Below the pieces are notes generated by a model. The model ran no database searches. It had not been told where the DNA came from and was given only the letters and a program-made list of their open reading frames with translations. Positions 4,678-64,000 of a stretch of DNA of 64,000 nt are shown piece after piece. The stretch lies in the IMG/VR virus record IMGVR_UViG_3300023687_000086. One strand, 5' to 3'. Position 1 is the stretch's first letter, and each line of letters begins with the position of its first letter. Origin of the DNA: an uncultured virus (IMG/VR IMGVR_UViG_3300023687_000086). Lineage: Duplodnaviria; Heunggongvirae; Uroviricota; Caudoviricetes. The position numbers and the translations under genes were made by a program.

Positions 4678-6729
4678 TTATGAAGATAACTTCATATTCA
4701 TTTGGCCTTTTAAAGTTCCATTAAGCGCGGCTGCGATGACAGCTGCCTTTTTGTCAGCACGCTTCTGACGCGCCTTCTCGTTGTTCTTCTTACGACGCTC
4801 CTCCAGCATCAAAGCAACTTCCTGACGGTATGCCATGCATTCGGCTTCCCAAACGGATGTGTCACCATCGCGGGCTACGTACAACTCACGTAAGAACTGA
4901 TTGAACACTTCACCATCAAAGTCGTTCTTGTAAGTAACATAGGCTCCGGTACAGTACAGCAACTTCTTTGCACGGGTCATTGCAACGAAGATAAGTCTTC
5001 GCTCCTCTTCCACCTCGAGCTTCGCACTTGGTTTGTGGTACTGGTTGTTATCGAAATCGTCCATCAAGCAAAATACACAATCGTACTCCAGACCCTTAGA
5101 AGAGTGAGCCGTAGTAAGAATGAAATCAGCTACATAGTCCTTTTTCATCTTAAGTTCTACCTTCTGGCCGTATAACTTGAATTTACGGATTGACTCATAA
5201 ATCCAGAATGGCTCGTTATTTACGGACCCTTCCTTCTGGCAACCGGTTAAGGCTTCCTGGTAAATCATATCCTTCCAAGCCATGTACAGCTCATCGTCCT
5301 TATCCAAGGAATCGAGTAACTCATGCATTCTCTGACGCTGAGTGTACGCACTCTTTGTCTTTAGATTCGTAATCTCGAATCTCATTGCCTCAATTGCCTG
5401 CTTCTGCTCCGATTCAGATAAATCCTTAAACAGATTATCATTAACTACGGTCAAATAGTCGTAGATACCCTGAGTAGACTCCTCATCACCGAAACACTCA
5501 AACAGGTTCGTTGCTGCAATAACACGAGTGTTTTCGCACAACTTCATTGGAGCTTTCATAACCCATGTCTGATCAGCCTTGGACAACGCCTGTGAAACGT
5601 TAGCAAGGTTTTTCTTATTACGAGTCATAAAGCAAATCGTCCAATCCGGATGATCCTTACGAACCTGTACAGCTTCTTCGATGCAATAAGCTAACTCTTC
5701 GTCCCAGTTCTTAAATCCCTTAAAGGTGACATTCTCTCCAGGACCATTAGCTGCAACAAGCTGCTTCACCACACGTTCCTCGTTATTCGCAACGAATGTG
5801 TTGGACGGATCCAAGATGTTAGATGTGGAACGATAATTATTAACCAGGTTGAAATGATCCACCGGATCCGAAGCGAACTCATCACGTTCGTGAATCTTCT
5901 CTTCAAAATGATTAAAATTATCTACGATCGCATTTCGGAACGAATAGATAGACTGATCAGAATCACCGATAACGAGGATTGACTTAATGGTTCCGCCATG
6001 AATATCACGGCAGCCCTGCAATCGACGAACGAATTCCATGTTGAAATCATTGGAATCCTGAAACTCATCAATAACGACGTGCCAAAATCCAAGACTGTTC
6101 AAATAGTCCGGATGCAAGTCCAACAGGCTGATACCAATTGGCTCCTGGTCGGCGAATGTGATAAGTCCCTCGGCCTTTAAAATGGATTCATACTCAACGT
6201 ACACATCAAACAACTTCTGATATGCAGCGTCACTCGAGATTTTACCATCATAGCCGGCATCCTTCATAGCGGTTTCGAGTTCAGTTGCATCTTCCAGGTG
6301 CAGCTCCTTAATCAAATTAAAGGCTGCGAATGCGATTGGTAACGCACCCTGTGCTCCTTTTGCACCCATGTTCATAGATACCGGAATCTCATAGTTGATG
6401 CCCGGAATCTGATTCTCGCCGGTTACGAGTGGCAATACCTTGTCGACCTGTCGGATCGGATTCACGTCTACAACCGTCGGCTGTACCGCGTAATCTAAAT
6501 CTTCATAGAACTTATGCAAAAGATCCATATCAAACGCGTTGAATGTGAGTACCGGTAACAAACTTGTATCGATGTTATAACCACGACCCAAGCACTTACC
6601 AGCAATACGGTCCGCCATCTCCTTAGTTGCCGCGTCCGTAAAGGTGATGTGTAAGAAGTGCGAAAGAATCTGTGATAACCACTGTTCTTTCTGTTCCTGC
6701 GTCGCTACACGCTTTTTTGTTTCTGCCAT
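4678..6729 (-). CDS. UvrD/PcrA-like SF1 helicase lacking Walker A (motifs Ia-VI only)
   Basis: ITFTDAATKEM (Ia), VIDEFQD (II), GDSDQSIYSFR (III), NYRS (IV), TAHSSKGLEY (V), EERRLIFVAMTRAK (VI); no GxxGxGKT. Confidence 0.85.
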   Translation of the reverse strand: MAETKKRVATQEQKEQWLSQILSHFLHITFTDAATKEMADRIAGKCLGRGYNIDTSLLPVLTFNAFDMDLLHKFYEDLDYAVQPTVVDVNPIRQVDKVLPLVTGENQIPGINYEIPVSMNMGAKGAQGALPIAFAAFNLIKELHLEDATELETAMKDAGYDGKISSDAAYQKLFDVYVEYESILKAEGLITFADQEPIGISLLDLHPDYLNSLGFWHVVIDEFQDSNDFNMEFVRRLQGCRDIHGGTIKSILVIGDSDQSIYSFRNAIVDNFNHFEEKIHERDEFASDPVDHFNLVNNYRSTSNILDPSNTFVANNEERVVKQLVAANGPGENVTFKGFKNWDEELAYCIEEAVQVRKDHPDWTICFMTRNKKNLANVSQALSKADQTWVMKAPMKLCENTRVIAATNLFECFGDEESTQGIYDYLTVVNDNLFKDLSESEQKQAIEAMRFEITNLKTKSAYTQRQRMHELLDSLDKDDELYMAWKDMIYQEALTGCQKEGSVNNEPFWIYESIRKFKLYGQKVELKMKKDYVADFILTTAHSSKGLEYDCVFCLMDDFDNNQYHKPSAKLEVEEERRLIFVAMTRAKKLLYCTGAYVTYKNDFDGEVFNQFLRELYVARDGDTSVWEAECMAYRQEVALMLEERRKKNNEKARQKRADKKAAVIAAALNGTLKGQMNMKLSS

Positions 6730-6834
6730 AATATTCTCCTTTCATAGTTGGCATATATTTTTGCGTACTTAAATATGTGATTGTTGTGTGGGTACAAAAA
6801 AAAAGAGGCTAATAAGTAGCCTCTTCGTTTACGG

Positions 6835-8340
6835 TTATACAGTCATCGGCGCATAATATTCGTATTCATCTAAGAACGGATTATGATTTGTAATATATTC
6901 GTTCGGATGCACTAAGAAATCCTCAACGATCTCATCAATCATGTCAATCTGATCATGACGAATATGAAGCATCGGGATGTTCATATATTCCCATAAAGAC
7001 TGTTTGATAAAGTCCGCATTAAGACGTCTCATAAAATCTTCGAGCGTCTTGAAGAAGTATTCGACGATTTTTTGATGCTGAATACCATCAAATTCAATCA
7101 CGCCAGTAATTCCGTTATTTTCGTAAAGAACAAAATCCGGACGTAACCTTGCAATTCTCTGTTTCGTCCACTCAATTCCGCGTTCCGATAGGTCTTCTTG
7201 AAGTGCCGTTAAGAAGTCATTCCAATCAACATCAACATGGAGTTCCTTGAATATAGTTTTGATTGTACAGTCGTGATAAAAGGTTACATTATGACGTTTC
7301 AAACATTCTGCAACACGGTATTCTCCAATATGCATATGAGACGGAATTGTAAGGGCTTCTTGTAGTGACCAGCCACGTTCAATTCGTTTGTTAAACATCT
7401 TATATTGTACTTTGTACTCATCGCACATCTTTTTAATTGACGGAAAGACTTTTCCATTGTGATCCGTTACTACTTTTTTTCTTGGATACACAGGCATCGA
7501 TAAAGCATCTTCGATAGAATGGCCACGACTTAATCTTGAGCGAACTAACGAATAACTAATATTATTGATGCTACATAATTTCTTAATGGAAGAATCATTG
7601 GAAGTATTATGAAGAATATTATCTATAGCTTCTTCAATAGAGTGGCCACGATTTATTCTTTGACGAACCGTGTTTATATTTATATTTTTGGCTGTACACA
7701 ATTCATCTAATGATGCATATCTTTGCCCGTTATATAATACGGATTTCTTTTTATTGGTTGTCTTCGGTGGCATAGTTAATGCATCACGCACTGACATTCC
7801 CTGTGATATTCTTCGTCGGTAAGTGCATTTCGAAATATGATAATGCTGGCACATGGAGGCTTCACTAGCATACTCGTTACCAAAATGGTCAAAACATGTC
7901 CATGATTCTCCTCTTTTAGGCGTCGTTAATGCCTCCTCTATTGTCATCCCAGCTTTAATTCTATCGCAATATGATTGTCTGGATATATGCCAATATTTAG
8001 CCATTTCATTAAGTGAGTTAAAAGTATTACCAAGATGATCCTTAACAACTATTGGCGTCCTGTATTTTGGTGCGGTTGCGGCCTTTTCTGCAGACCATCC
8101 ATAACGGCGTATTCGTTGGTACAACAAGTCGTCTCGTATTCCAGATTTTTTACACATTGCTTCTATTTCATATGTTTTAATTCGGTTCCGATTAACAGGA
8201 AGTTCCAATGAATCTTTTAATGACAACCCTTTGTCTAGGCGATGCTGAAGTGTTCTCGGATTCACCCCGTAAAAAGCACACATATCTTTTATTGAGCTAT
8301 ATACATTTCCTAAATGATCTCTACATTCTTTCTTTGACAT
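6835..8340 (-). CDS. Tandem HTH-repeat protein with C-terminal PD-(D/E)xK (Vsr/DUF559-like) endonuclease
   Basis: About 7 repeats of DHxGxxYxSxxxMCxxYxI...RIxxGxSxxxAL(T)xP; C-terminal LRPDF...IEFDGIQH. Confidence 0.7.
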   Translation of the reverse strand: MSKKECRDHLGNVYSSIKDMCAFYGVNPRTLQHRLDKGLSLKDSLELPVNRNRIKTYEIEAMCKKSGIRDDLLYQRIRRYGWSAEKAATAPKYRTPIVVKDHLGNTFNSLNEMAKYWHISRQSYCDRIKAGMTIEEALTTPKRGESWTCFDHFGNEYASEASMCQHYHISKCTYRRRISQGMSVRDALTMPPKTTNKKKSVLYNGQRYASLDELCTAKNININTVRQRINRGHSIEEAIDNILHNTSNDSSIKKLCSINNISYSLVRSRLSRGHSIEDALSMPVYPRKKVVTDHNGKVFPSIKKMCDEYKVQYKMFNKRIERGWSLQEALTIPSHMHIGEYRVAECLKRHNVTFYHDCTIKTIFKELHVDVDWNDFLTALQEDLSERGIEWTKQRIARLRPDFVLYENNGITGVIEFDGIQHQKIVEYFFKTLEDFMRRLNADFIKQSLWEYMNIPMLHIRHDQIDMIDEIVEDFLVHPNEYITNHNPFLDEYEYYAPMTV

Positions 8341-8361
8341 GTTTACCTCCGTTTCAATATT

Positions 8362-8395
8362 AAATACGTATCAATCGACCCTCTTTTGTGACAAA
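8362..8395 (-). promoter_or_regulatory. Class-2 34-bp motif, copy 2
   Basis: AAATACGTATCAAT-CGACCCTC-TTTTGTGACAAA (plus strand) just upstream of the endonuclease gene. Confidence 0.7.
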
Positions 8396-8429
8396 AAAAA
8401 AGAGCCCCAACATGGAGCTCTTCTTTTTG

Positions 8430-8687
8430 TTACTTACCCAAAACTTCTTTTAGATACGCAGCTTTCTTGTTGCCAGTTGCAGCAGGACGAGGGTGAACAG
8501 TTCCAAAACTTGGTTTCGGAGTTTGTCTGGTCTTTTGGCCAGTTACTAGTTCAACTTCACATAACGGGTCAAACCAACCACTATCCATGTCATCGTTGAA
8601 CTCTTTTCCGCCCTTTTCTTCTGCCTCGGCAATACTGTTAGCCTCTACTTCGTACTCACTAACGAATCGAACACGGTACTTAGCCAT
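8430..8687 (-). CDS. Hypothetical protein
   Basis: ORF with RBS AAGGAGG. Confidence 0.6.
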   Translation of the reverse strand: MAKYRVRFVSEYEVEANSIAEAEEKGGKEFNDDMDSGWFDPLCEVELVTGQKTRQTPKPSFGTVHPRPAATGNKKAAYLKEVLGK

Positions 8688-8699
8688 TACATTACCTCC

Positions 8700-8855
8700 T
8701 TAAATACGATCAGCGGCTTCTCTAAGTTCATCCGCACTGTATCCCATGAGAGGTACGCGTTCCCATTCGCCGTATTCTTCAACGAGCTCTGCCTCCTGGA
8801 TAAGGTCATCACGTGTAAAGCCATGAACTTTAACAATCTTCATTAACTCATCCAT
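8700..8855 (-). CDS. Small hypothetical protein (51 aa)
   Basis: MDELMKIVKVHGFTRDDLIQ..., TAATG overlap with upstream gene. Confidence 0.5.
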   Translation of the reverse strand: MDELMKIVKVHGFTRDDLIQEAELVEEYGEWERVPLMGYSADELREAADRI

Positions 8856-9628
8856 TACGCAAATACCGCCTTAAACGCATCGGCATTTGGCCCAGGAATA
8901 ACAGCGAATACTACCTTCTCAAAGGAATAATCGTATTCATCCAAAAGGGTCTTAAAAATAGATGCTACTTCATGAGCATCCTGATCAAACACGCCACATC
9001 CAAATGCACCAAGAATCGGAACCTTCACACCTTCATTCTCCATAATGTTCAAAACATAATAGATACGAGACTTAAGAACCTCATAATTCTCTTCTCTGGT
9101 TACCTTCTGGTATGTATGTGCAGCTTTGAAATTTGGAGCGGCACATGTGAGTACGTCGCAAAAAACGATATTGTCGTAGTCTCTAGCAAAAGCGATTTCC
9201 GGTGTATATAATGCACGGTTCTTATATAATGCACGATTCAATTCAGAACGATTCGGCTCGTAATAATCTGCCTCGAACTGTGAAAGTACGTTATATAAGG
9301 TACTCTCGGCGCATAAACACTCCTCCTGAGCAATTGAACCGGACAAATACATACCACCAGCCTGCTTATAAGATGCAAAATTCAATACGCATGCCTTGGA
9401 ACCCATCTCCGCATACTCTATAACGGCCGATACAGAGTCAATTTCTTCGACGATGCAAGGAATCCGATTGTCAGAGAAGCCCCTAGTAAGTGGTTCCTCA
9501 TCATAAATCGTTGCATTCTTAACGGATAGACTAATGCGTTCCGGGAAAATGCGGGCCATCTCATCTACGTGCCGTTTTGCAGCTGCGGCCTTTTCGTTTT
9601 TCTTGCTAAAATAGTTTTGATGTTTCAT
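8855..9628 (-). CDS. Microbial PARG-type macrodomain (TIGR02452/DUF2263 family)
   Basis: LNFASYKQAGG...AQEECLC and ILGAFGCGVF motifs. Confidence 0.85.
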   Translation of the reverse strand: MKHQNYFSKKNEKAAAAKRHVDEMARIFPERISLSVKNATIYDEEPLTRGFSDNRIPCIVEEIDSVSAVIEYAEMGSKACVLNFASYKQAGGMYLSGSIAQEECLCAESTLYNVLSQFEADYYEPNRSELNRALYKNRALYTPEIAFARDYDNIVFCDVLTCAAPNFKAAHTYQKVTREENYEVLKSRIYYVLNIMENEGVKVPILGAFGCGVFDQDAHEVASIFKTLLDEYDYSFEKVVFAVIPGPNADAFKAVFA

Positions 9629-9725
9629 AATTTATTCTCCTTTCAGCGAAACATTATTAGATACGTATTAAATATGGCGACAAATAAGCATAAAAAAAAA
9701 CGAGCCCAAAGGACTCGTTCTTTTC

Positions 9726-10256
9726 TTAGATTTCATATTCGCTATATACGATCTTCTCTCGGGATCTCGTCGCCGGAACATCAATAACGCGCTGATTTGA
9801 AGAACCTCTAAATTTTAAGCTGATATTCTTCTTATCAATCTGAAACTCGCCATCAACTAGGACGTCAATTATGGATAAAATAGCATCCGTATCATCACTA
9901 TGACACCGGGTATTGTTTGTGTCGGTTAGTTCCTCGTAAGTGTATCCGGAATAGATCCAAATAGTTTTGTCTGGCAGCTCCTCTTTGATTCGTTCTAGGA
10001 ACGGTCTAAGTGCCGCCTGATTCTGAACTTCCATCGGTTCCCCACCTAAGATCGTAAAACCATCGATATAATCTGGTTGGCTATCCTCGATTAACTGGTC
10101 TTGAACCTCTTTTGTGAATGGATTTCCGTATGAAAAATCCCAAGTCATAGAGTTAAAGCACCCTTTACAGTGATGCGTACATCCGGACACGAATAAACTG
10201 GTGCGACAACCTGGTCCGTTGGCCACGTCGAACATGTGAATATTTGCGTAATTCAT
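9726..10256 (-). CDS. nrdG: Anaerobic ribonucleotide reductase activase
   Basis: DVANGPGCRTSLFVSGCTHHCKGCFN, GGEP, FRGSSNQR; start moved to RBS-supported ATG 10256. Confidence 0.95.
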   Translation of the reverse strand: MNYANIHMFDVANGPGCRTSLFVSGCTHHCKGCFNSMTWDFSYGNPFTKEVQDQLIEDSQPDYIDGFTILGGEPMEVQNQAALRPFLERIKEELPDKTIWIYSGYTYEELTDTNNTRCHSDDTDAILSIIDVLVDGEFQIDKKNISLKFRGSSNQRVIDVPATRSREKIVYSEYEI

Positions 10257-10359
10257 ATATAATCTCCTTTCAAAATTACAGCATTTACGTACTAAATATG
10301 GATGCGTAAAGTTGGAATAAAAAAAAAGAGCCACACCACGTGACTCTTTTCATCCGTTA

Positions 10360-10617
10360 TTAACTAGCAAAGGCGTAATTTTCTATTGATTCCGACTCTT
10401 CGTACACCATATACGGGTTGATGTCAGTACTTTCATTCCAACAGATCAGACCCATCTCATCAATATGAACAGTGTTGAAAAAGCTTATATCCTTAATACA
10501 TTCGAATAATGGATCATCAAACAATTTGTAACAATTGAACACTCGAATAGATTCATCATCGAAACGGATTAACAAAATGTAATTATCTAATGGTTTAACA
10601 TCTTTTGCTCTATGCAT
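10360..10617 (-). CDS. DUF2442-like protein (putative TA partner)
   Basis: VKPLDNYILLIRFDD...F..VHID..ICW...DINP pattern; follows DUF4160-like gene. Confidence 0.7.
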   Translation of the reverse strand: MHRAKDVKPLDNYILLIRFDDESIRVFNCYKLFDDPLFECIKDISFFNTVHIDEMGLICWNESTDINPYMVYEESESIENYAFAS

Positions 10618-10626
10618 AAAAACCTC

Positions 10627-10899
10627 CTAATCAATCACACCCGGATTGATACCATTGTTGATATCATCCCAAGCCTTATCGAGTTCAGACTGATGTTGCT
10701 TAATCCATGATTCAACTACTTTTCTGTCTTCTTTGCGCTTTAGTCCAGACGTCCCTTTCATAGGCATTCCATCGAACCCATATTGACAGTGTTCGTCAGG
10801 CTTAAGCACCAACAAGTGTTTCTTGTGGTGTGGATTGTTCTTCTCGCCGTAAATGTAAATAGCTATATTTAACGCCTCGAAATATTTGATTCTAGCCAT
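10627..10899 (-). CDS. DUF4160-like protein
   Basis: IYIYGEKNNPHH..HL...VESWIKQHQSELDKAW pattern. Confidence 0.65.
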   Translation of the reverse strand: MARIKYFEALNIAIYIYGEKNNPHHKKHLLVLKPDEHCQYGFDGMPMKGTSGLKRKEDRKVVESWIKQHQSELDKAWDDINNGINPGVID

Positions 10900-10994
10900 A
10901 TTTATCTCCCTTCTTATTTTATCATATTTGGCAATAATAAATATGGACAAATAAAAAGAGCCGCCAATGGCGACTCATTCTTACGTTAAAACGA

Positions 10995-11534
10995 TTAAAG
11001 ATCCATTTCCATACAACGTTCACGCTGCTCATCAAGGAAATGCTTTGCAGTGCCTTTGTAATCATCCATCGTACCGTCATTATGAATCTCGTAATCGTAG
11101 TCATAATTGTATACGTTAGCATCTGCATGATTGGACGGATTGGTTTCATATCCGGCCCTTCTAACAAGGATCGATTCTGCAGCAAAAGTGTTACAAAAAT
11201 ACTCGATATCTCTAGGTTCTCTAGCATGAACGAACATAATCTGTGGCTCGTCCGCCATGATGAACTTATCATATTCGTCCTCAATTGCACGGATACTCAT
11301 CTGGTTATACTCATCACATAAGTCCTTCAAATCGGCCAAAAACTTTCTGGAGCGAGGGGTCTTCTGACCGTCCCATCCGCACATCTTTGCGATTTCTTTT
11401 ACCTTATCTACCATGGATACGTTTAAGATGGTGCCGCTAGAAAAGCCTTCTTCCTGTAACACGTCCTGACAAAGAGATACAAATGTATCCTTTCCACATC
11501 CAGCCTCACCATTAATAACAAACACTTTTTTCAT
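10995..11534 (-). CDS. P-loop kinase, deoxynucleoside monophosphate kinase-like
   Basis: INGEAGCGKDT Walker A, REPRDI, NHAD, YDYEIHNDGT motifs of phage dNMP-kinase-like proteins. Confidence 0.65.
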   Translation of the reverse strand: MKKVFVINGEAGCGKDTFVSLCQDVLQEEGFSSGTILNVSMVDKVKEIAKMCGWDGQKTPRSRKFLADLKDLCDEYNQMSIRAIEDEYDKFIMADEPQIMFVHAREPRDIEYFCNTFAAESILVRRAGYETNPSNHADANVYNYDYDYEIHNDGTMDDYKGTAKHFLDEQRERCMEMDL

Positions 11535-11631
11535 ATTCTATTCTCCTTTCTTGCAAGTGTCATTTAACTGGTATTAAATATGGGAATGAAATGCGTAAAT
11601 AAAAAGAACCTATATAATCTAGTCCATTGTG

Positions 11632-11660
11632 TTGACAACGTATGTATACCGAATTACAAT
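11632..11660 (+). promoter_or_regulatory. Sigma70/SigA promoter of TA operon
   Basis: TTGACA-17-TACAAT. Confidence 0.7.
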
Positions 11661-11702
11661 TAAGACAGAAGAAAACCTGTAACGATATAGGAGGTACATC
11701 TT

Positions 11703-11960
11703 ATGGCACAGTTAAGTATGCGCGTTGATGATAACGTAAAGAAAAAGGCCGAACTGGCTTGCGAAGCTCTTGGACTAACCATGACAGCAGCAATCAATCT
11801 TTATCTTGTAAAACTTGGAAATGAGATGCGGATTCCATTCGAAGTTTCTGTGGATCCGTTCTACAATCCAGAAAACCAGCGCGTCTTAGAAAAGTCTATC
11901 CAACAGTTAAACTCCGGCAAAGGTGAAAAACATGATTTGATTGAGGTGGACGATGAATAA
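11703..11960 (+). CDS. RelB/DinJ-family antitoxin
   Basis: LSMRVDDNVKKKAE..CEALGLTMTAAINLYL...IPFEV. Confidence 0.85.
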   Translation: MAQLSMRVDDNVKKKAELACEALGLTMTAAINLYLVKLGNEMRIPFEVSVDPFYNPENQRVLEKSIQQLNSGKGEKHDLIEVDDE

Positions 11961-12216
11961 GACCTGGTCTGATATCGCTTGGAACGATTACTTGTACTGG
12001 CAAGAGCAAGATAAAAAGACGCTAAGAAAAATCAACGCTCTGATTAAAGATATTGACCGGAATGGCTACAAATGCAAAGGTGGTCCAGAACCGTTAAAAG
12101 GAAACCTTACCGGTTACTGGAGCGTACGTATCAATCAAAAAGATCGTTTGGTCTTTAGAATCATAGACGGTGAACTCGAGATCGTTCAGTGTAGGACTCA
12201 TTATGGTGATAAATAG
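11953..12216 (+). CDS. yoeB: Txe/YoeB-family toxin
   Basis: AWNDYLYWQEQDKKTLRKINALIKDI...PEPLKGNLTGYWSVRINQKDRLVF. Confidence 0.9.
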   Translation: MNKTWSDIAWNDYLYWQEQDKKTLRKINALIKDIDRNGYKCKGGPEPLKGNLTGYWSVRINQKDRLVFRIIDGELEIVQCRTHYGDK

Positions 12217-12253
12217 AACATACAAAAGAAAAGAGCCCTAAGGCTCTTTTCTT

Positions 12254-13093: not shown

Positions 13094-13212
13094 ATTATTC
13101 TCCTCTCTACGATATATTTTCATCGCCACTTAAATATGGGCACTATCTCTTACGCACAAAAAAAAGAAGAACCCATTACGGATTCCTCTCCTTTTTAGAT
13201 TCAATGCGCTTA

Positions 13213-57349: not shown

Positions 57350-57827
57350 ACGTCAGCGTTCCTTTCCATTTTCCAGGTCGAACAGATTGACCGCTCGCCG
57401 GTTTTAAATTGCAGTGAACCAAAGTTTCGGTGTCAGGGTTTACATCATCATAAGAAAATACCGTCTTTGGGTCTTCCACTTCCATTGTTATCACTTCCGG
57501 ATTTTTATCAAATACGCCTTGTTTTTCTAGGTTGAAATTTGTACCATCTACAGAATCGACCTCATCTTTTGGTGCAACCATTAGTTGATACATCGGATCT
57601 ATATCGCCTTTAATTGCGATATCATATCCGCCGACTCCGCTTGTTGAGTCTAATGCTACCGATGTAGGCAATCCGACCGTAAAAGACGAACCAATAACAA
57701 CTTCTGCTTCGATCTGAGCTGTTCCTGAATTAGACATTGACGTTCTTTCAGAAGCCTGTACAGGCATCATACAAAAAATCAACGCAATAGCGGTGCCGGA
57801 TGCAATTATTCCATTACTCCACCTCAT
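57315..57827 (-). CDS. Secreted WxL/fimbrial-shaft-like protein
   Basis: Signal peptide; FTVGLP...GKWKGTLTYDI. Confidence 0.55.
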   Translation of the reverse strand: MRWSNGIIASGTAIALIFCMMPVQASERTSMSNSGTAQIEAEVVIGSSFTVGLPTSVALDSTSGVGGYDIAIKGDIDPMYQLMVAPKDEVDSVDGTNFNLEKQGVFDKNPEVITMEVEDPKTVFSYDDVNPDTETLVHCNLKPASGQSVRPGKWKGTLTYDIQLSQTEHN

Positions 57828-57838
57828 GATAAGCCTCC

Positions 57839-58303
57839 TTACTGCTTGTGAATAACCAAACCATCAACATTTGAGGCAGCAACAATCTCGTTCTTATGAA
57901 ACACGGTGATTTTATATTTCAAATCGTTCGCGCCATCATGAAGCACCTCATTCGTATACACATTCAATGGTTCTGCATCTCCAGGTTTAATTACACTAGA
58001 TTTGTGAACCTTCTGCCCATTGATGTATACGTCATACTGCAATGTGTATCCCTTTTCCTCGTTCGCCTCATCGTTTACAAGATAAATGTTTGGTTGATTC
58101 TCGGATACACTTACATCAGAACGTCCGGAAATATATGCCATATCGCTAACCTGGCTACTTGTTGTCTCGTTCGGAATATCAGCGATTGCAATGGTATTTG
58201 CCGGCTCTACGCTTCGCGTAAGATAAAACCACATAGCAGCGGCACCGGCAGCCATTGCAGCCACAACTCCGAGTGCAATTAGTATTCTTTTCTTTGACTT
58301 CAT
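57839..58303 (-). CDS. Membrane-anchored Ig-like protein
   Basis: N-terminal TM; LVNDEAN...LQYDV...SSVIKPG. Confidence 0.55.
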   Translation of the reverse strand: MKSKKRILIALGVVAAMAAGAAAMWFYLTRSVEPANTIAIADIPNETTSSQVSDMAYISGRSDVSVSENQPNIYLVNDEANEEKGYTLQYDVYINGQKVHKSSVIKPGDAEPLNVYTNEVLHDGANDLKYKITVFHKNEIVAASNVDGLVIHKQ

Positions 58304-58484
58304 ATAAACCCTTTCTACTGGTTAATCAATAATTGATAACCATCTGCAAAGAGCCACAAAATTCCGGTCCCTTTATTGAGGAACCGGATTGGCAGCCCAT
58401 GTTTAGAAAACTCTTTGGAGATCATCTCATAATCAGTGCAAAACTGTTGTATGCAACAATTAACGTCTCTTTGAAACGCGTCCA

Positions 58485-60104
58485 TTATGCGATTCCCTCT
58501 CTGTCTATGCGATCTTTCCAGTAACGCATACCTTTATCAAAAGTCGCCTTATCATAATAAAATGGCAACTTTGCTTCATCGTCCTTAAAAGACTTGACCG
58601 TAAGATCATGCGCTTGATATTTTGGGTACCTACCCTCATAAGCACGGCGCTTTCTTATGTAATTTCTGCGGATATAATCAAACGTCTTATCCGCATCGAT
58701 AACTTTCATTGGCCCCCGTTTTTGAGCACGTAACTTTTGATTTTCAATCAAAAGGTTCTTCGTTTCGTCCTGCATTCGAGCCACTTTCTCGTTCGCCTCA
58801 TCCGCTTGTTTCTTTGCATTTGCAACTAACTTCTTCATAGAGCCTAACTCTTTTGAAATTCGGTTGTATACTTTAACAAGACGAGAAAATAGATCCTCAA
58901 CGGTGACCTCAACCATATCAACCGGTTGTGGATCCAAATCATTGATCATACGAATCACTTCATTCGCCTGATCACGGCGTTTCTTTTCAGCCCGTTTCTC
59001 TTCCTTGGATATACCGTTATACTTCCACTTGATAAACGGATCCATAATAGGAAGTGCGCAATCTGGCTGAGCAAACTCGGATATTGAATCTCCGTGGTCC
59101 ACAAATACCGCACTATCTTTGGAATCATGGATACGTAAAATTCGTCCCACCATCTGGAACCAAAGTGGACGCGACTTAATGTGTCGGCAAGAAAACGCAT
59201 AATATACTTCCGGGCAATCAAATCCATACGTAAGCAATGCAGCGTTTACAAGGCCATCACAATCGCCATTCTTAAGCGCATCCAATAGGACTCTTCTCTC
59301 CGCAACGTCCATTTCGCCACTAATTACCCTAAAGTCATATCCGGCGGCGTTAAATATCTGGCAAACAGATTCGGCCATCTGAATTGTCACAGTGAATCCA
59401 ATGGCAGGCTTTCGCTCCGGATTATATTGCTCGTAGCAAGCAACCAAATCGCCCCAGATTTCGTTCTTATCGAACAGTTCCATCATCTGTCTGCCAGAAA
59501 ACTCTTCGCTCGTTGCACTATCGGACTTCATAGATGTAATGCCATCAATTGGTCTCGTATAATACTTAAGCGGAGTTAAGTAACCCTTCTTAATTAGCGT
59601 CGGAACGGTTTCTGCTACAAGGACATCATCAAAAACACCGAATTTATGGATTGGACCGGCTCCTTTCGTAAGAGCAAGTCCATCCATTCTCTCCGGAGTT
59701 GCAGTCAATCCAAGTACTCGGTCCGGGTTAATGGCATCTACCAACTTGAATGTCTGCTCGATGCCAATATGGACCTCATCAAAGATCAGCGTAATAGGAT
59801 GAATATCCGGTACATTCTTAATCTGAGTTCGAAGCGAATCTTTGGAAGCGATAATCGTATTCTTCCCTGTAAGCTCCGTTTTGTCAGCCCAGATAATATC
59901 TACGTCACCAAACTCATCATGCGCCTGCTTTATAAGTTCTAAGCGCGGCACGACAAAGATCTTAAGGCCTGGCAACTGCGACATAAGTGCGTTTGCGATA
60001 ACCGTTTTGCCGGCGCCGGTTGGAAGTGTGATACAAAGATCTAAGTCACTGTCTAATACCTGCTGCACAACGCGTTTTTGATAATCTCTTAGCTCTTTTG
60101 CCAT
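58485..60104 (-). CDS. SF2 DExH helicase (RadD/ResIII-like)
   Basis: LRDYQ, LPTGAGKT, DEVH, LTATPER, GFDCP, QMVGRILR. Confidence 0.9.
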   Translation of the reverse strand: MAKELRDYQKRVVQQVLDSDLDLCITLPTGAGKTVIANALMSQLPGLKIFVVPRLELIKQAHDEFGDVDIIWADKTELTGKNTIIASKDSLRTQIKNVPDIHPITLIFDEVHIGIEQTFKLVDAINPDRVLGLTATPERMDGLALTKGAGPIHKFGVFDDVLVAETVPTLIKKGYLTPLKYYTRPIDGITSMKSDSATSEEFSGRQMMELFDKNEIWGDLVACYEQYNPERKPAIGFTVTIQMAESVCQIFNAAGYDFRVISGEMDVAERRVLLDALKNGDCDGLVNAALLTYGFDCPEVYYAFSCRHIKSRPLWFQMVGRILRIHDSKDSAVFVDHGDSISEFAQPDCALPIMDPFIKWKYNGISKEEKRAEKKRRDQANEVIRMINDLDPQPVDMVEVTVEDLFSRLVKVYNRISKELGSMKKLVANAKKQADEANEKVARMQDETKNLLIENQKLRAQKRGPMKVIDADKTFDYIRRNYIRKRRAYEGRYPKYQAHDLTVKSFKDDEAKLPFYYDKATFDKGMRYWKDRIDREGIA

Positions 60105-60138
60105 AAATACACTCCTTTCTACATAGTCGTTACAACCA

Positions 60139-60582
60139 TTACGCTACTCCAGTGCTACCAAAGCCATTATCGCCACGTTCGGTTTCCGCAAATGCATCTA
60201 CAATGTGCAATTCCGGGCACTCACATGCCATAAAGATAATCTGCACAATCTTGTCGCCAGCATGGAATACATGATCAGTGTCACCAAAGTTATAAAGCTT
60301 TGCTACAACGGATCCAGTATAACCAGCATCGATAACGCCGCCACAAGAAACAACGGACGACTTGACGTTAAGACCAGACTTAGACTCCAGCTTACCGTAA
60401 TAACCCTTTGGAATCTCAAAATGAACACCGGTATCAATCGCAACACATCCATGTGCTGGAACAATAACATCTTCCTTTGCTCGTAAATCCAATCCTGCGT
60501 CTTCCGCATGACCTCTTACCGGCTTACAATGATTTGCGTCTAACATAATGTTCATGTTTTCTAACACTCTTTTTTCCTCCAT
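60139..60582 (-). CDS. dut: dUTP diphosphatase (start may be GTG 60567)
   Basis: DAGLDL, SKSGL, GVIDAGYTG, GDKIVQ, RGDNGFGSTG. Confidence 0.93.
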   Translation of the reverse strand: MEEKRVLENMNIMLDANHCKPVRGHAEDAGLDLRAKEDVIVPAHGCVAIDTGVHFEIPKGYYGKLESKSGLNVKSSVVSCGGVIDAGYTGSVVAKLYNFGDTDHVFHAGDKIVQIIFMACECPELHIVDAFAETERGDNGFGSTGVA

Positions 60583-60654
60583 ATCTATAAAAAAATCTTC
60601 TATTCCGTACTTAATTATGTGTAGAAATTTTGGAAACAAAAAAAACTACATATA

Positions 60655-60688
60655 TAATACGTATCATTGGATACTCTTTTGTGACAAA
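60655..60688 (-). promoter_or_regulatory. Class-2 34-bp motif, copy 5
   Basis: TAATACGTATCATT-GGATACTC-TTTTGTGACAAA (plus strand). Confidence 0.7.
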
Positions 60689-60791
60689 AAATGGGCACCA
60701 ACGTCCGTGGTACCATAAAATTATCTACTCAAATATGGGTACGAATTATGGAAAATAAAAAAAGAGCCGATATAATCGACTCTTTTATCTA

Positions 60792-62048
60792 TTACTCCAT
60801 TGCTAAAGAATAAATAGGGTTGTACTCAATATCTACATACTGTTTTGCGCTACTCTGAGTGTATGTCTTTCCAGATTCGCTCTTATAAATTGGAGTCAAC
60901 TCTATGGCAATAGAGCTAAATCTTTCCATAGAACGTGTTGCATTATTATAAATGAATGTTGCACTTCCGGAACCAGCAGCAGCGATTACGCCCTCTCGTT
61001 TACCATTAACGGTTTTAACGCTAAGGTCAATATCTATCTGGTTGGTCGTTGGATTTACAGTAACTTCTTGTGGAGAGCAAAGTGCAAATTGACCTTCATC
61101 GTCAACATAGTATACTGTTGCCATGTATCGTTGCGGATTATTAGTCATAACCTTTCCATCGCCACGAGTCCAACTATTGGTTCCTGTCGCTCCTGTCATA
61201 AGTACGTTTGCATTCGCATTATATTGTGCTTCTGGCGTTAAACTAAAGTTACCAGAATACGTAAACGACTCAATCATCGGGATCTCTTTTTTGACTCTAG
61301 AAATCACTTCTCCACATTCGCAATAAGAGACCTCATCATAAGATCCAGCTTTTGCGGTCGTTGCAGCAACCTCGTTCTCCTTTTCGGTTCTAACTACTTT
61401 GTGAACATGGAGCTTTGGTATTTCCTTTTTGGTTCGAGACATTTCCTTTCCGCAATCACAATATTCAACCTCATCATATGAACCTGTTGCCGTCTCTGTT
61501 GCTGGCACCTCATTTTCCATTACAGTCATAGCAACCGAATGAGTGTGCTTTACTGTTGGTTCCACCAACTTGAACTTATAATTTGCCGTACCAGTATAGG
61601 TACCAGTTTTTACACCATCGAAGTCGCATCTTGTAATACCGGTAATCGATTGCCAATCCTTGGATAATACAGATTCACCTTCATGCTCTCCAAATACGTA
61701 CTCATGGTTCTTCTCGCCAGCCGGCACTTGTCCGATATAGTTCTCTAATACGAGCTTGTCACCGGACTCACTTGTTACATCGATATCTCCGGTCTCTAAT
61801 TTAAGCACCTTATCCGGCACCTCTCCGCACACCTGAATCTCGTAATCGTCTTTATATGACACGCTTTCTTCGTCATACTCAAGGTCGATTGCAGCAGGCA
61901 GCTTTACCTGGTACCAATGTTTGATTTCCAATTTTGTTGGAACCGAACCACTGGTTGGATTGACGACACTTGCAGCACTGGCGCCAATCGTCTGTCCTAA
62001 AACAGCAACGGACATAGCAATTAGTGGAAGGATGTTCTTTTTTCTCAT
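60792..62048 (-). CDS. Secreted protein with WxL-like N-domain and two His/Cys repeats
   Basis: Signal peptide; H.H...ENEV.AT....GSYDEV.YC.CG repeated twice. Confidence 0.7.
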   Translation of the reverse strand: MRKKNILPLIAMSVAVLGQTIGASAASVVNPTSGSVPTKLEIKHWYQVKLPAAIDLEYDEESVSYKDDYEIQVCGEVPDKVLKLETGDIDVTSESGDKLVLENYIGQVPAGEKNHEYVFGEHEGESVLSKDWQSITGITRCDFDGVKTGTYTGTANYKFKLVEPTVKHTHSVAMTVMENEVPATETATGSYDEVEYCDCGKEMSRTKKEIPKLHVHKVVRTEKENEVAATTAKAGSYDEVSYCECGEVISRVKKEIPMIESFTYSGNFSLTPEAQYNANANVLMTGATGTNSWTRGDGKVMTNNPQRYMATVYYVDDEGQFALCSPQEVTVNPTTNQIDIDLSVKTVNGKREGVIAAAGSGSATFIYNNATRSMERFSSIAIELTPIYKSESGKTYTQSSAKQYVDIEYNPIYSLAME

Positions 62049-62179
62049 CCCAATACCTCATATATAGATTTTTGCACGCTTAGATGCATACAATTAAATA
62101 TGGTATGAAAATTAGGCGCCAAAAGCGCAAAAAAAAATACACCCAACATAGTTGAGTGTATTTATGCTATTACATCATT

Positions 62180-62407
62180 TTACGCAGCCTTTGAATAATC
62201 GATAATAGAGATTTCTTGAAAAACATTCTTCGCTGCGGATACAATTTCTTCCAAACGTTCGGATACTTCATCACTAAAGGTGACTTCTCCACATACTTGG
62301 CATTCAAGACAAGGCACGTTCCGAACAACTATGATGCATCCATTGTATTCCACTGTAAAAGTAGTAAGTGTATGGACTTTATTGTCCCCAAAACAAGCAT
62401 TACACAT
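62180..62407 (-). CDS. YgiT/MqsA-type zinc-finger antitoxin-like protein
   Basis: MCNAC...VRNVPCLECQVCGE. Confidence 0.8.
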   Translation of the reverse strand: MCNACFGDNKVHTLTTFTVEYNGCIIVVRNVPCLECQVCGEVTFSDEVSERLEEIVSAAKNVFQEISIIDYSKAA

Positions 62408-62409
62408 AG

Positions 62410-62745
62410 CTATTTCTCCTTTCTTGTCTTATAATCCTGTTCCCAGTGTTCCATATCTGGCCGATATGCGGAAATGATAATGATTTTCCGCTCATTAAAT
62501 CCAACAACAACATGTATTGCTCCATTTTCTTGAATATCAATCCATAATATCAAACATGATGGAAATGAGCCGTCGTGCACGTTATCCGCATCAAGAGGAT
62601 AGTCTTCAATTATTTCGCCATGAAGAATACAGTTAGCTATATCATTTCTTGAAATATTCCTTTCAAGCATTCTTTTCTGGCAATGAACCGTGTACTCCAC
62701 AGGAATCCCTGATGTAAAAGCATCTCGCAGTTCTTTAATGTCCAT
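62410..62745 (-). CDS. DUF4258 toxin-like protein
   Basis: YTVHCQKRMLERNI...GEIIEDYP...IHVV...ISAYRPD...W. Confidence 0.8.
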   Translation of the reverse strand: MDIKELRDAFTSGIPVEYTVHCQKRMLERNISRNDIANCILHGEIIEDYPLDADNVHDGSFPSCLILWIDIQENGAIHVVVGFNERKIIIISAYRPDMEHWEQDYKTRKEK

Positions 62746-62869
62746 ATTGCTAATTCCTTCTCACTTTTATTTATTCCAAGTTAGAGAAAGTCCACGAAGG
62801 ACTCTCTCTATTCTCTCAAAAGAGAATCCTTCTTGGTAAGGATATTATAGCACGTTTTGAAGATTCAAA

Positions 62870-64000
62870 CTATACTAGTTCTTCTTCCTCATCGGCCCAA
62901 TTCTGCTCTGCAGACTTACCGTTGATAAGAACCTCAGCCTCTAATCCATCGGACTGCTTACACAAGAACGATGCGGTTACCGGAACTTCGACATCCTCTC
63001 CGGCCTCGTATCTCGCAACCACATCATCCAGTAATTCAAGAGCCATCTGAACGGTTCGTTCGGTTGTGATCTCTGTTTTTCCTGAACCAGGAGGCGCATC
63101 TACGATACCGGTGCCGGCACGATAATTGGTAACTACCTGCTGATACTCATCCTGCTGAATAGATCCACGAGCTTTTAAGGTTCCGGTCTCTTCATCAGAA
63201 TCAGCAAGAATTGGTGGCTCCTTGAAGTAACAAGAGATATAGTTCGGACAACCCTTACAATCAGTCTCTTCCTTCAAATCACACTTTTCGTAACCGGTTG
63301 CATACTTCTCGAGCAACTCTCGGAACTTCTTGTCCAGATCGTTATCCGGGAACCGAGCATCGTTTGCCATCTTTGTGTACACTTCTTCTTGGCGTCTAAT
63401 AGCCTTCGTGTCAGCAAAATAATCCTCAATTTCGTACGTCTTACCAGACTTGTCCGTGTCTTTACGTAAAAAGTAATACGTAGCCTTAATATCGATACTC
63501 TGGTTTGGCAACAAAAAAGTATCTGCATACTTACGAAGTGCGTGACGCATTACATGAAGCCACATATCAGTCTGTGGGTTGCTCTGTCCTCTTAACGTCT
63601 CGGAAATATCCGGACGGCCTTTACGAAGGATAGCACCTTCTAAGACACCAATATGCATTGGTTTATCGGTTTTGATAATATCTTTTCGAATCCAAGTAAA
63701 CCGGACCTCAATATCATCATCATCAATAAAGTGCGTTCCATCCGCAGCATCGATGAAGTCCGTTAGGTCCAAATAAATCGGATCTTCCGGTACAAACACG
63801 GCCTGCTTCTCTGGATCTGGATTTCCGTATGGCCAGCAGAACGAATTAATGAATCGGTATAAGCACTTAGAAAGTACGTTTACAGCTGCATCCTGAATCT
63901 CAGAAATATCATCTACATTCTCATCACTATAAGATATAGATACATCTTCCTTGATTTCATCAACAGATTGCGGGTCATATTCACCCTTAATAAACGCTTC
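62870..64000 (-). CDS. Nuclease-like Cys-cluster domain fused to N-terminal fragment of UvrD-type helicase (5-prime truncated by window edge)
   Basis: Frame open to 64000; C..(7)..CxxC....C cluster, then QDEYQQVV...IVDAPPGSGKT Walker A, then acidic tail and stop. Confidence 0.7.
   Translation of the reverse strand, partial: EAFIKGEYDPQSVDEIKEDVSISYSDENVDDISEIQDAAVNVLSKCLYRFINSFCWPYGNPDPEKQAVFVPEDPIYLDLTDFIDAADGTHFIDDDDIEVRFTWIRKDIIKTDKPMHIGVLEGAILRKGRPDISETLRGQSNPQTDMWLHVMRHALRKYADTFLLPNQSIDIKATYYFLRKDTDKSGKTYEIEDYFADTKAIRRQEEVYTKMANDARFPDNDLDKKFRELLEKYATGYEKCDLKEETDCKGCPNYISCYFKEPPILADSDEETGTLKARGSIQQDEYQQVVTNYRAGTGIVDAPPGSGKTEITTERTVQMALELLDDVVARYEAGEDVEVPVTASFLCKQSDGLEAEVLINGKSAEQNWADEEEELV

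What the first reader, a model, noticed from the sequence alone, without database searches (positions are those of the whole stretch)
4678..64000. UvrD-type helicase split into two genes 56 kb apart
Seen: ORF 62870->64000 ends shortly after a Q-motif and Walker A (QDEYQQ...IVDAPPGSGKTEITTERTVQMAL) with an acidic tail of about 50 aa. ORF 4678-6729 begins with a short K/R-containing leader and then motif Ia (HITFTDAATKEMADRI) through VI, with no Walker A. Known: in SF1 helicases motif Ia follows motif I after about 25-30 residues, so the two pieces are complementary, on the same strand and in colinear order. The C-terminal half has its own class-1 motif, RBS and terminator, so it does not look like a decaying fragment. 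The N-terminal half also carries a Cys-cluster AddB/Cas4-like nuclease-type domain. Inference: a naturally split nuclease-helicase that reassembles in trans, possibly via charge-complementary tails, or is joined at RNA/DNA level.
Basis: partly seen in the sequence, partly recalled or inferred. Interest (0 to 1): 0.72.

Follow-up and report, generated by a model that had tools for sequence, protein, structure and literature searches.

The report
Conserved two-gene split UvrD-type helicase
A DNA helicase of a large gut-bacterial mobile element is encoded as two separate genes cut inside its ATP-binding domain, here 56 kb apart, and this cut is old and kept by selection, so the enzyme most likely assembles from two proteins.

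Summary
Both ORFs lie on the minus strand. The N-piece (64000..62870) runs off the window and is 416 aa in full. It has a Cas4/AddB-like Cys-cluster nuclease fold, then Q-motif, Walker A and one helix. The C-piece (6729..4678, 683 aa) starts just before motif Ia and carries motifs Ia-VI. No Walker A was found in any of the 37 closest C-type relatives.

This is neither decay nor an assembly artefact. Both halves belong to families (37-100% identical) that break at the same loop. The halves tile the nearest fused relative, leaving 7 residues uncovered. In both half-trees the split forms are one clade nested among about 930-1040-aa fused proteins, which points to a single old fission.

In 22 of 26 related metagenome loci the halves lie within about 0.3-1.4 kb, 12 as N then C and 10 as C then N. 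The 56-kb spacing is therefore probably derived. The variable order, the conserved stop and start, and the lack of any intron or intein signal argue against joining at DNA, RNA or protein level.

The most likely reading is a heterodimeric helicase with a composite ATP site. Binding itself was not tested, because the complex prediction never ran. DNA upstream of the N-piece is unseen.

The parts
62870..64000 (-). N-piece gene. It runs off the window; the full protein is 416 aa and its start lies about 120 nt beyond base 64000.
   Evidence: ORF listing. Identical 416-aa protein P0121. tblastn shows a single copy in the window.
63221..64000 (-). Cas4/AddB/RecB-type nuclease-fold domain (residues 41 to about 300 are visible in the window).
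   Evidence: AF2 model, core pLDDT 80-94. VIA-align matches: AdnA nuclease 6ppr_A Z 10.8, AddB 4cej_B Z 9.6, ACE1 Cas4-family 9iac_B Z 9.7, RecB 5ld2_B Z 9.2. No Pfam hit.
63230..63259 (-). Cys cluster C288-x2-C291-x5-C297. Together with the invariant C14, which lies outside the window, it gives the iron-staple pattern.
   Evidence: These columns are invariant in alignments A1 and A3.
63074..63142 (-). Q-motif (Q327) through Walker A (G345-S-G-K-T349) of the helicase.
   Evidence: Invariant in A3. The L165 homolog matches UvrD-helicase profile positions 1-41.
62873..63004 (-). Acidic tail after helix alpha1 (residues 373-416). The first half (RYEAGEDVxVPVTAxF) is conserved; the end varies.
   Evidence: Alignments. 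Against L163: pN 0.13, pS 0.99. Charge.
4678..6729 (-). C-piece gene, 683 aa: leader, then SF1A motifs Ia-VI. No Walker A (P0001, 99.7% identical to it, was the sequence checked).
6646..6729 (-). Conserved 28-residue leader (M..K/R..AT..QK..WL..ILSHFLHI), ending at the start of TFTDAA.
   Evidence: By regex, 33 of 37 relatives start 20-32 residues before the motif. P0023 also fits by eye, at 26 residues.
6628..6645 (-). Motif Ia (TFTDAA).
   Evidence: Invariant in A2.
6055..6069 (-). Motif II / Walker B (DEFQD).
   Evidence: Invariant D221-D225 in A2.
6736..6740 (-). AGGAG ribosome-binding site, 6 nt before the ATG of the C-piece.
   Evidence: Sequence read.
6802..6826 (-). Terminator-like hairpin between the upstream ORF and the C-piece.
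4629..4661 (-). Terminator-like hairpin after the C-piece.
6835..8340 (-). Homing-endonuclease-like ORF directly upstream of the C-piece: repeated HTH-like modules plus a DUF2726 / PD-(D/E)XK-like C-terminus.
   Evidence: Pfam PVL_ORF50, HTH_36 and DUF2726, all below their cutoffs. PHROGs families named HNH endonuclease (9.5e-36) and homing endonuclease (3e-4). No PDB sequence match.
52337..53233 (-). DUF5688 gene lying between the halves on the same strand. A DUF5688 gene is the only gene between the halves in group A relatives.
6730..62869 (.). 56.1 kb of intervening element genes, nearly all on the minus strand.

Best explanation
The two ORFs are the two subunits of one nuclease-fold/SF1A (UvrD/PcrA-type) helicase. 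It belongs to a large conjugative-type mobile element of gut Bacillota.

A single old gene fission cut an ancestral fused protein of about 950-1040 aa. The cut fell in the surface loop between helix alpha1 (which follows the P-loop) and strand beta2 (motif Ia) of RecA domain 1A.

The N-piece supplies the Fe-S nuclease-like domain, the Q-motif, strand beta1, the Walker A lysine and alpha1. The C-piece supplies motifs Ia-VI, that is Walker B, the DNA-binding motifs and the arginine finger. ATP binding and hydrolysis therefore need both polypeptides, which dock non-covalently to complete domain 1A.

Shown here: the break point, its conservation, co-inheritance of the halves, and selection. Inferred: physical assembly, activity, and the role in the element (DNA unwinding or end processing for replication, transfer or recombination).

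The halves were probably first adjacent (N, one inserted gene, C) and were later moved apart. The 56-kb spacing in this window is the extreme case.
For: (1) The pieces are complementary. The C-piece covers UvrD-helicase profile positions 48-271 and the L165 N-piece covers 1-41. By BLASTP the N-piece covers residues 120-355 of fused P0038 and the C-piece covers 363-938, with 7 residues uncovered and no overlap. That gap falls in the loop/helix at 353-367 of the P0038 model, between alpha1 (336-352) and beta2 (370-374).

(2) The break point is conserved. Walker A is found in 0 of 37 C-type proteins (P0001-P0037, 38-100% identical), and motif Ia in 36 of 37. All 36 N-type proteins examined (23 from P0121-P0142 plus P0145, and 13 representatives P0146-P0158) have Walker A, end 30-134 residues after it, and lack motif Ia. 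Among the listed longer relatives, 82 of 83 have Walker A, and motif Ia follows a median of 23 residues later.

(3) The catalytic residues of both halves are invariant: Q327 and G345/G347/K348/T349 in A3, and DEFQD and motifs III-VI in A2.

(4) There was one fission and the halves were co-inherited. In the C-half tree the 25 split rows form one clade (SH-aLRT 100), nested among fused rows. In the N-half tree the 16 split rows form one clade (99). Both trees place P0038 (with P0049 in the C-half tree) as fused sister and group A at the base.

(5) The halves co-occur. In 22 of 26 metagenome loci found with the N-piece profile, a C-piece lies 307-1410 bp away on the same strand. None of the 26 is fused.

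(6) Selection acts on the N-piece. Against L163, pN is 0.14 while pS is 0.79 (saturated). The tail alone gives pN 0.13 and pS 0.99.

(7) The helicase stub is disordered when modelled alone (pLDDT below 50 at residues 277-323 and 339-355). The same elements score 82-92 in the fused relative.

(8) The C-piece has its own ribosome-binding site and flanking terminators. An independent run's contig spans the C-piece start together with the upstream ORF.
Against: No direct test of binding or activity was obtained.

The DNA upstream of the N-piece, beyond base 64000, is unseen. In 10 related loci a C gene sits exactly there, so a second, adjacent C-type partner cannot be excluded for this element.

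The leader and the tail are only weakly charge-complementary (+1 against -14).

In the window's subclade the Asp of the nuclease PD motif is Thr or Asn in 10 of 16 split sequences. At least the nuclease part may therefore have changed its role.

The trees were built with quick searches and SH-aLRT support only.

Only 5 distinct N/C pairs are known to me, too few for a co-variation test.
Confidence: 0.74

Rival explanations
1. The halves no longer work together. After the fission each was put to a separate use, for example the N-piece as an Fe-S DNA-end-binding protein and the C-piece as an ATPase-dead DNA-binding or scaffold protein. On this view the 56-kb separation reflects lost coupling in this lineage.
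For: The halves are 56 kb apart in different transcription units. The 47%-identical relative L164 also has no C-piece within 3 kb upstream or 10 kb downstream. The PD-motif Asp is lost in the window's subclade.
Against: Walker A and the Q-motif stay invariant in the N-pieces, and motifs II-VI stay invariant in the C-pieces, including the window's subclade. That is hard to explain if neither half can form an ATP site. The stub and the tail are under purifying selection. The two half-trees have the same shape.
Confidence: 0.12
2. The window's N-piece has a different, adjacent C-type partner just outside the window (the C-then-N arrangement of group B). The C-piece at 4678-6729 would then be a paralog with a partner elsewhere.
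For: 10 of 26 related loci have the C gene 0.3-1.2 kb upstream of N. The window ends inside the N-piece. No whole genome is held.
Against: L164, the closest relative with flanking DNA, has no C-piece in the 3 kb upstream of its N-piece. The numbers of close N-variants and C-variants in the protein collections are similar, and their identity ladders run in parallel: 80/78/78/74% against 83/80/78/78%. One 72-kb NCBI contig length is listed for both P0003 (C) and P0125 (N).
Confidence: 0.08
3. The halves are joined into one product, by excision of the 56 kb, by RNA trans-splicing, or by a split intein.
For: The halves are on the same strand in colinear order in this window. Split-intein 'fractured genes' with an endonuclease gene between the halves are known (PMC2677866, abstract and passages). 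A homing-endonuclease-like ORF lies next to the C-piece.
Against: The order is C then N in 10 related loci. The stop codon after the N-tail, and the start with its ribosome-binding site and leader, are conserved. Rfam gives 0 matches in the whole window at gathering threshold. The spacers next to the halves are only about 105-125 nt and hold a terminator or promoter-like sequence. No Pfam intein/Hint hit was found. The sequence beyond the aligned core is about 44 aa plus 24 aa, it varies in length between relatives (N-pieces end 30-134 residues after Walker A), and it has no recognisable intein blocks. No recombinase gene lies at either border.
Confidence: 0.03
4. The split is an assembly or sequencing artefact, or a recent frameshift or pseudogene.
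For: None was found. Metagenome assemblies can be chimeric in general.
Against: The same split appears in dozens of independently assembled sequences from several sources. Contigs of other runs match the C-piece region with 0-1 differences, and one spans 6607-7879.
Confidence: 0.01

Closest known systems
Fused relatives of the same family (e.g. P0038, 1041 aa; P0058, 930 aa): an N-terminal Cys-cluster nuclease fold plus a UvrD-type helicase in one chain
   Same: They have the same domains in the same order and the same Cys pattern. The helicase part is 34-36% identical. They come from the same kind of gut mobile-element contigs. L081/L082 also carry a methylase 68% identical to the window's.
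   Different: They are one polypeptide, with motif Ia a median of 23 residues after Walker A. The window's clade is cut there into two genes.
UvrD / PcrA / Rep (SF1A helicases)
   Same: The motif set is the same. The helicase part of the fused relative's model matches PcrA 1qhg (E 3.6e-30), UvrD and Rep. Pfam and NCBIfam hits agree.
   Different: Those enzymes are single chains without an N-terminal nuclease domain. All NCBIfam scores are far below the equivalog cutoffs (145 against 911 bits for PcrA), so this is not an ortholog of any of them.
AddAB / AdnAB / RecBCD helicase-nucleases
   Same: They combine an SF1A motor with a RecB-family nuclease domain, which in AddB holds an Fe-S 'iron staple'. 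They are multi-subunit. The nuclease domains are the best structural matches (Z 9-10.8).
   Different: In those enzymes each subunit has a complete (or degenerate but complete) motor core, and the nuclease is C-terminal. Here the nuclease is N-terminal and the subunit boundary runs through RecA domain 1A.
Genes-in-pieces created by insertion of a gene into a coding region (phage Aeh1 nrdA split by an HNH homing-endonuclease gene; split gp43 of T4-like phages)
   Same: An enzyme is cut inside a domain into two separately translated chains that must reassemble. PMC2677866 (passages) reports that the two NrdA parts form a functional reductase. Group A relatives have one inserted gene between the halves, and a homing-endonuclease-like ORF abuts the window's C-piece.
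   Different: In group A the inserted gene is a DUF5688 gene, not a recognisable endonuclease. The halves are rearranged (C then N) or 56 kb apart. The split is old, and about 16 clusters at 50% identity carry it.
Fractured genes with split inteins (Dassa et al. 2009, PMC2677866)
   Same: [quoted passage not shown]
   Different: No intein was found here, so no covalent rejoining is expected.
UvrD-Cas4-like fusions and unfused uvrD + cas4-like operons of Clostridiales (Hudaiberdiev et al. 2017, PMC5704561, passages)
   Same: They associate a Cas4-like nuclease with a UvrD-like helicase, fused or as neighbouring genes, partly in Clostridiales.
   Different: The proteins described there belong to pfam12705. 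The window's N-piece has no Pfam hit and carries the helicase's own Walker A. The passages I read do not mention a break inside the helicase core. I did not see their Figure 6 or their supplements, so overlap with group A or B loci cannot be excluded.

Membership tests
SF1A UvrD/PcrA/Rep-type helicase | Q-motif and motif I (Walker A, GxGKT) | tested here: met
   Present and invariant, but on the N-piece only. The L165 N-piece hits UvrD-helicase profile positions 1-41.
SF1A UvrD/PcrA/Rep-type helicase | Motifs Ia, II (DExQD), III, IV, V and VI | tested here: met
   All are on the C-piece. Pfam UvrD-helicase 48-270 of 271 (3.9e-25) and UvrD_C (1.1e-27). The columns are invariant in A2.
SF1A UvrD/PcrA/Rep-type helicase | All motor motifs on one polypeptide | tested here: not met
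   Walker A and motif Ia are on different gene products.
SF1A UvrD/PcrA/Rep-type helicase | Four-subdomain 1A/1B/2A/2B fold | tested here: inconclusive
   Shown only for the fused relative P0038 (model pLDDT 79.7; PcrA 1qhg E 3.6e-30, TM 0.67 on the target). The two window pieces were not modelled together.
SF1A UvrD/PcrA/Rep-type helicase | DNA-dependent ATPase with 3'-5' unwinding | not testable with these tools
   Needs biochemistry.
Cas4/AddB-type 'iron-staple' PD-(D/E)XK nuclease domain | One N-terminal Cys plus C-x2-C-x5-C | tested here: met
   C14, C288, C291 and C297 are invariant, also in fused relatives. The name and the pattern of the motif are recalled, not taken from a call.
Cas4/AddB-type 'iron-staple' PD-(D/E)XK nuclease domain | RecB-like nuclease fold | tested here: met
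   VIA-align: AdnA 6ppr_A Z 10.8 (206 aligned, rmsd 4.0), AddB Z 9.6, ACE1 Z 9.7, RecB Z 9.2, Cas4 Z 6.6-7.2. Foldseek's best hit is 9iac_B at E 9.8e-4.
Cas4/AddB-type 'iron-staple' PD-(D/E)XK nuclease domain | Catalytic D ... (D/E)xK residues | tested here: not met
   The PD-motif Asp is present in 13 of 14 fused and 6 of 16 split sequences. It is Thr in the window's protein (T142). No canonical (D/E)xK is seen; the motif reads E161-x4-R166-K167. The residue assignment rests on the alignment only.
Cas4/AddB-type 'iron-staple' PD-(D/E)XK nuclease domain | Sequence-profile membership (Pfam Cas4 / PDDEXK_1) | tested here: not met
   The N-piece has no hit in Pfam, NCBIfam, PADLOC or PHROGs. The A3 profile has no PDB sequence match.
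Split-intein 'fractured gene' | Intein (Hint) halves at the two break ends | tested here: not met
   No Pfam Hint/intein hit. The tails are short, vary in length, and end in ordinary stop and start codons.
Genes-in-pieces by insertion of a mobile gene | Halves flank an inserted free-standing gene | tested here: inconclusive
   Met in 12 group A loci, but the insert is a DUF5688 gene. Not met in 10 group B loci. In the window, a homing-endonuclease-like ORF lies upstream of the C-piece, but 56 kb lies between the halves.
Genes-in-pieces by insertion of a mobile gene | The separately made halves reassemble into an active enzyme | not tested
   The complex prediction could not be run. Activity needs biochemistry.

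The most novel reading that the evidence does not exclude
This would be a natural, evolutionarily stable SF1 helicase whose ATP site is built from two polypeptides: the P-loop on one, and Walker B plus the arginine finger on the other. The two genes have drifted into distant transcription units of a mobile element. Motor activity would then exist only when both modules are expressed, a built-in two-key switch for DNA unwinding or processing during the element's life cycle. The stretch between the halves may have grown from one inserted gene (DUF5688) to 56 kb of cargo.
Probability: 0.2. Interest if true: 0.75.

Novelty: new variant of a known kind. Interest (0 to 1): 0.55.

Why it matters
Gene fission inside a folded catalytic domain is rare. 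The few studied cases, such as split phage RNR and split polymerases, are young and keep the halves adjacent.

Here a RecA-type motor domain is cut between Walker A and motif Ia. About 16 clusters at 50% identity keep the cut, and the halves have been shuffled in order and, in this element, moved 56 kb apart.

If the halves do reassemble, this would matter in three ways. It would give a natural blueprint for a split, conditionally active SF1 helicase. It would offer a test case for how intradomain complementation evolves. It would also warn annotators that "Walker-A-less UvrD" genes and "hypothetical Cys-rich" genes in gut mobile elements can be two halves of one enzyme.

My three literature searches for split helicases or gene fission in helicases found no description of such a helicase in the held library.

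Tried and rejected
Complex prediction of the N-stub (A3, residues 300-416) with the C-piece (A2, residues 1-660) never ran. The queue was full or the machine gave no usable answer, and then the cap was reported as used. There is therefore no result either way on binding.

No whole genome is held for the window, and earlier scan notes had nothing.

DNA and protein searches of phage and plasmid records found no close relative. The phage protein hits were only generic UvrD at 30% identity or less.

The genome-contig scan with the C-piece profile used generic UvrD patterns. It returned only hits whose longer alignments were 21-36% identical (a few short segments reached 52%), so no close relative's replicon could be read. 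IMG/VR held fused forms only.

A search of 401 genomes of one family found 1 hit, a fused form.

Cluster look-up gave no accession numbers, so gene order on the 72-kb and 8.5-kb contigs that list both halves could not be read.

Rfam found no matches in the window.

Read laying returned only short, low-depth contigs. Two 151-nt contigs of an RNA library lie inside the C-piece, which does not show transcription. Two joints with 20-letter sides were treated as noise.

The split-intein idea was rejected (see rivals). The charge-zipper idea is only weakly supported.

Literature searches for split helicases returned nothing relevant, and no paper holds the term DUF5688.


Full report
OBSERVATION. 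The N-piece (64000..62870) is cut by the window end. An identical 416-aa protein, P0121, shows that the start lies about 120 nt further on. It ends with a Q-motif and Walker A (..IVDAPPGSGKTE..), one helix, and a tail; the 67 residues after GKT have net charge -14. The C-piece (6729..4678, 683 aa) begins 28 residues before TFTDAA. Its close copy P0001 (99.7% identical) has no Walker A. Pfam places it on the UvrD-helicase profile from position 48 of 271, plus UvrD_C. The N-piece of relative L165 matches positions 1-41 of the same profile. The C-piece has an AGGAG site 6 nt before its ATG and terminator-like hairpins on both sides. tblastn finds one copy of each half in the window.

WHAT THE PIECES ARE. 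The N-piece has no hit in Pfam, NCBIfam, PADLOC or PHROGs. Its AF2 model has a confident core at residues 30-275. That core aligns with the nuclease domains of AdnA (Z 10.8), AddB (9.6), ACE1/Cas4-family (9.7), RecB (9.2) and Cas4 (about 7). One N-terminal Cys and C-x2-C-x5-C are invariant. From memory, this is the AddB/Cas4 Fe-S 'iron staple' pattern. The Asp of the PD motif is present in 13 of 14 fused and 6 of 16 split relatives, but it is Thr142 in the window's protein, and no canonical (D/E)xK is seen. The nuclease may therefore be inactive or unorthodox here. The C-piece is a generic UvrD/PcrA-type motor. Its scores are far below the equivalog cutoffs, and its PADLOC hits are only the generic GajB/UvrD models.

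THE SPLIT IS CONSERVED AND OLD. The word-indexed protein search with the C-piece listed 120 proteins. The 37 closest (38-100% identical; 448-825 aa, most 670-750) all lack Walker A, and 36 of them have motif Ia. The exception, P0010, is a 5'-truncated fragment. By pattern, 33 of the 37 start 20-32 residues before motif Ia. P0023 does too by eye. P0015 starts 43 residues before it, and P0036 has a longer called ORF with an internal Met at the usual place. Of the next 83 proteins (mostly 920-1040 aa, about 34% identical), 82 have Walker A, with motif Ia a median of 23 residues later (range 23-41). These are fused forms with the same N-terminal Cys-cluster domain. The N-piece search found 22 proteins of 380-476 aa (37-100% identical). 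With a further cluster member (P0145) and 13 representatives from the exhaustive profile search, that makes 36. All 36 carry Walker A, stop 30-134 residues after it, and lack motif Ia. In the exhaustive search 258 proteins reached E <= 0.001. About 16 of the best 17 are split-sized, and nearly all the rest are 900-1050 aa. Fused is therefore the norm and the split clade is a minority.

ONE FISSION EVENT. In a tree of the helicase parts (48 rows) the 25 split rows form one clade (SH-aLRT 100) nested among fused rows. In a tree of the N-parts (30 rows) the 16 split rows form one clade (99). In both trees the fused P0038 lineage is the sister and group A is basal. Both trees come from quick searches without bootstraps. 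By BLASTP the window's halves cover P0038 residues 120-355 and 363-938. In the P0038 model (pLDDT 79.7) this gap lies between alpha1 (336-352) and beta2 (370-374) of domain 1A. The helicase part of that model matches PcrA, UvrD and Rep.

ARRANGEMENT IN RELATIVES. The N-piece profile found 26 metagenome loci.
- In 12 loci the order is N then C on one strand, 871-1410 bp apart, with a DUF5688 gene in between where examined.
- In 10 loci the order is C then N, 307-1165 bp apart.
- In 4 loci only N is seen. In three of these the contig is too short or is cut on the relevant side. The fourth, L164 (47% identical), has no C-piece within 3 kb upstream or 10 kb downstream.
- None of the 26 is fused.

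Adjacency is thus the common state, and the 56 kb seen here is probably derived. In the window a DUF5688 gene (52337-53233) still lies between the halves on the same strand. This fits, but does not show, growth of the gap by insertion.

AGAINST JOINING OR ARTEFACT.
- The C-then-N order occurs in 10 loci.
- The stop, the start, the ribosome-binding site and the leader are conserved.
- Rfam gives no match in the window.
- The short spacers are occupied by a terminator or a promoter-like sequence.
- There is no intein domain, and the tails vary in length.
- No recombinase gene lies at the borders.
- Contigs of other runs match the C-piece region, and one spans 6607-7879.

SELECTION AND FOLDING HINTS. 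Against L163 (79% identical), the N-piece has pN 0.14 with saturated pS 0.79. The tail alone has pN 0.13 and pS 0.99. Walker A and the Q-motif in the N-pieces, and motifs II-VI in the C-pieces, are invariant. Modelled alone, the helicase stub of the N-piece is disordered (pLDDT below 50 at 277-323 and 339-355). The same elements score 82-92 in the fused relative.

MECHANISM (INFERRED). The two proteins dock non-covalently so that beta1, the P-loop and alpha1 of the N-piece complete RecA domain 1A of the C-piece. ATP hydrolysis then needs both. The conserved start of the N-tail (RYEAGEDVxVPVTAxF) and the C-leader (..WL..ILSHF) are the likely clasp. Charge pairing is weak. The role in the element is not shown. 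The window looks like a large conjugative plasmid or ICE: VirD4-like coupling protein, DUF3854 primase, ArdA, methylase, NrdDG, ThyA, LigA. It comes from animal faecal metagenomes. I therefore favour DNA unwinding or end processing for the element's replication, transfer or recombination.

COMPARISON WITH WHAT IS KNOWN. The closest concepts are genes-in-pieces and 'fractured genes' (PMC2677866; abstract and passages read). An ORF with PHROG hits to families named HNH endonuclease and homing endonuclease abuts the C-piece. UvrD-Cas4 fusions and unfused Clostridiales operons are described in PMC5704561 (passages read). That work concerns pfam12705 proteins and, in the passages I saw, does not mention a break inside the motor. 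I could not see its figure or supplements. Searches for split helicases found nothing relevant.

OPEN POINTS. Binding was not tested because the complex prediction never ran. The DNA upstream of the N-piece is unseen, so a second adjacent C-type gene cannot be excluded. The spacing in the closest relatives is also unknown. One contig length is listed for both halves in two cases, 72 kb and 8.5 kb.

Noticed in passing
window 6835-8340 (-): A 501-aa ORF with about seven repeats of a ~45-aa HTH-like module and a DUF2726 / PD-(D/E)XK-like C-terminus. It hits PHROG families named HNH endonuclease and homing endonuclease. It looks like a free-standing homing-endonuclease-like gene sitting directly upstream of the C-piece.
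   Followed up: partly
window 52337-53233 (-); L165 11205-11894: A DUF5688 gene is the only gene between the helicase halves in group A relatives. A DUF5688 gene (25-28% identical) also lies between the halves in the window, 9.6 kb downstream of the N-piece.
   Followed up: partly
window 62180-62745 (-): A DUF4258 toxin-like ORF and a small MqsA/YokU-like zinc-ribbon antitoxin-like ORF follow the N-piece directly. A TTGAAT..TGcTATAAT promoter-like sequence lies in the spacer.
   Followed up: no
window 3812-4444 (-): A 210-aa ORF with a signal-like N-terminus and a Pfam ATLF hit (anthrax lethal factor N/C domain family, E 1.5e-7) lies directly downstream of the C-piece. It is probably a small secreted metalloprotease-like protein.
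   Followed up: no
window 19555-20769 (+): An IS110-family transposase. It is one of only about three annotated plus-strand genes in a window whose genes are otherwise nearly all on the minus strand, and the only large one inside the intervening 56 kb.
   Followed up: no
window 8855-9628, 27381-29609, 29762-30574, 38734-39150 (-): A cluster of ADP-ribose/NAD-related genes: microbial PARG, NAD-dependent DNA ligase, ADP-ribosylglycohydrolase, and a YAcAr/SLOG domain protein.
   Followed up: no
window 9726-17267, 39153-40025, 60139-60639 (-): The element carries its own nucleotide metabolism genes: NrdD, an NrdG-like activase, another radical-SAM protein, FolD, ThyA and dUTPase.
   Followed up: no
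window 43773-48523, 51321-51851 (-): A conjugation/establishment module: VirD4-like coupling protein, Zn-ribbon + DUF3854 primase, a 549-aa sigma-70-like protein, and ArdA.
   Followed up: no
window 58485-60104 (-): A second helicase, of SF2 type (ResIII + Helicase_C) with a coiled-coil tail. It has PADLOC PbeA-like hits.
   Followed up: no
L081 13014-13895; L082 13239-14117: IMG/VR contigs that encode the fused helicase also carry an N6/N4 DNA methylase 68% identical to window 33133-34050. This points to a shared gene pool between these elements.
   Followed up: no
L165 9224-9892: An HNH endonuclease gene lies directly upstream of the N-piece in a group A relative.
   Followed up: no
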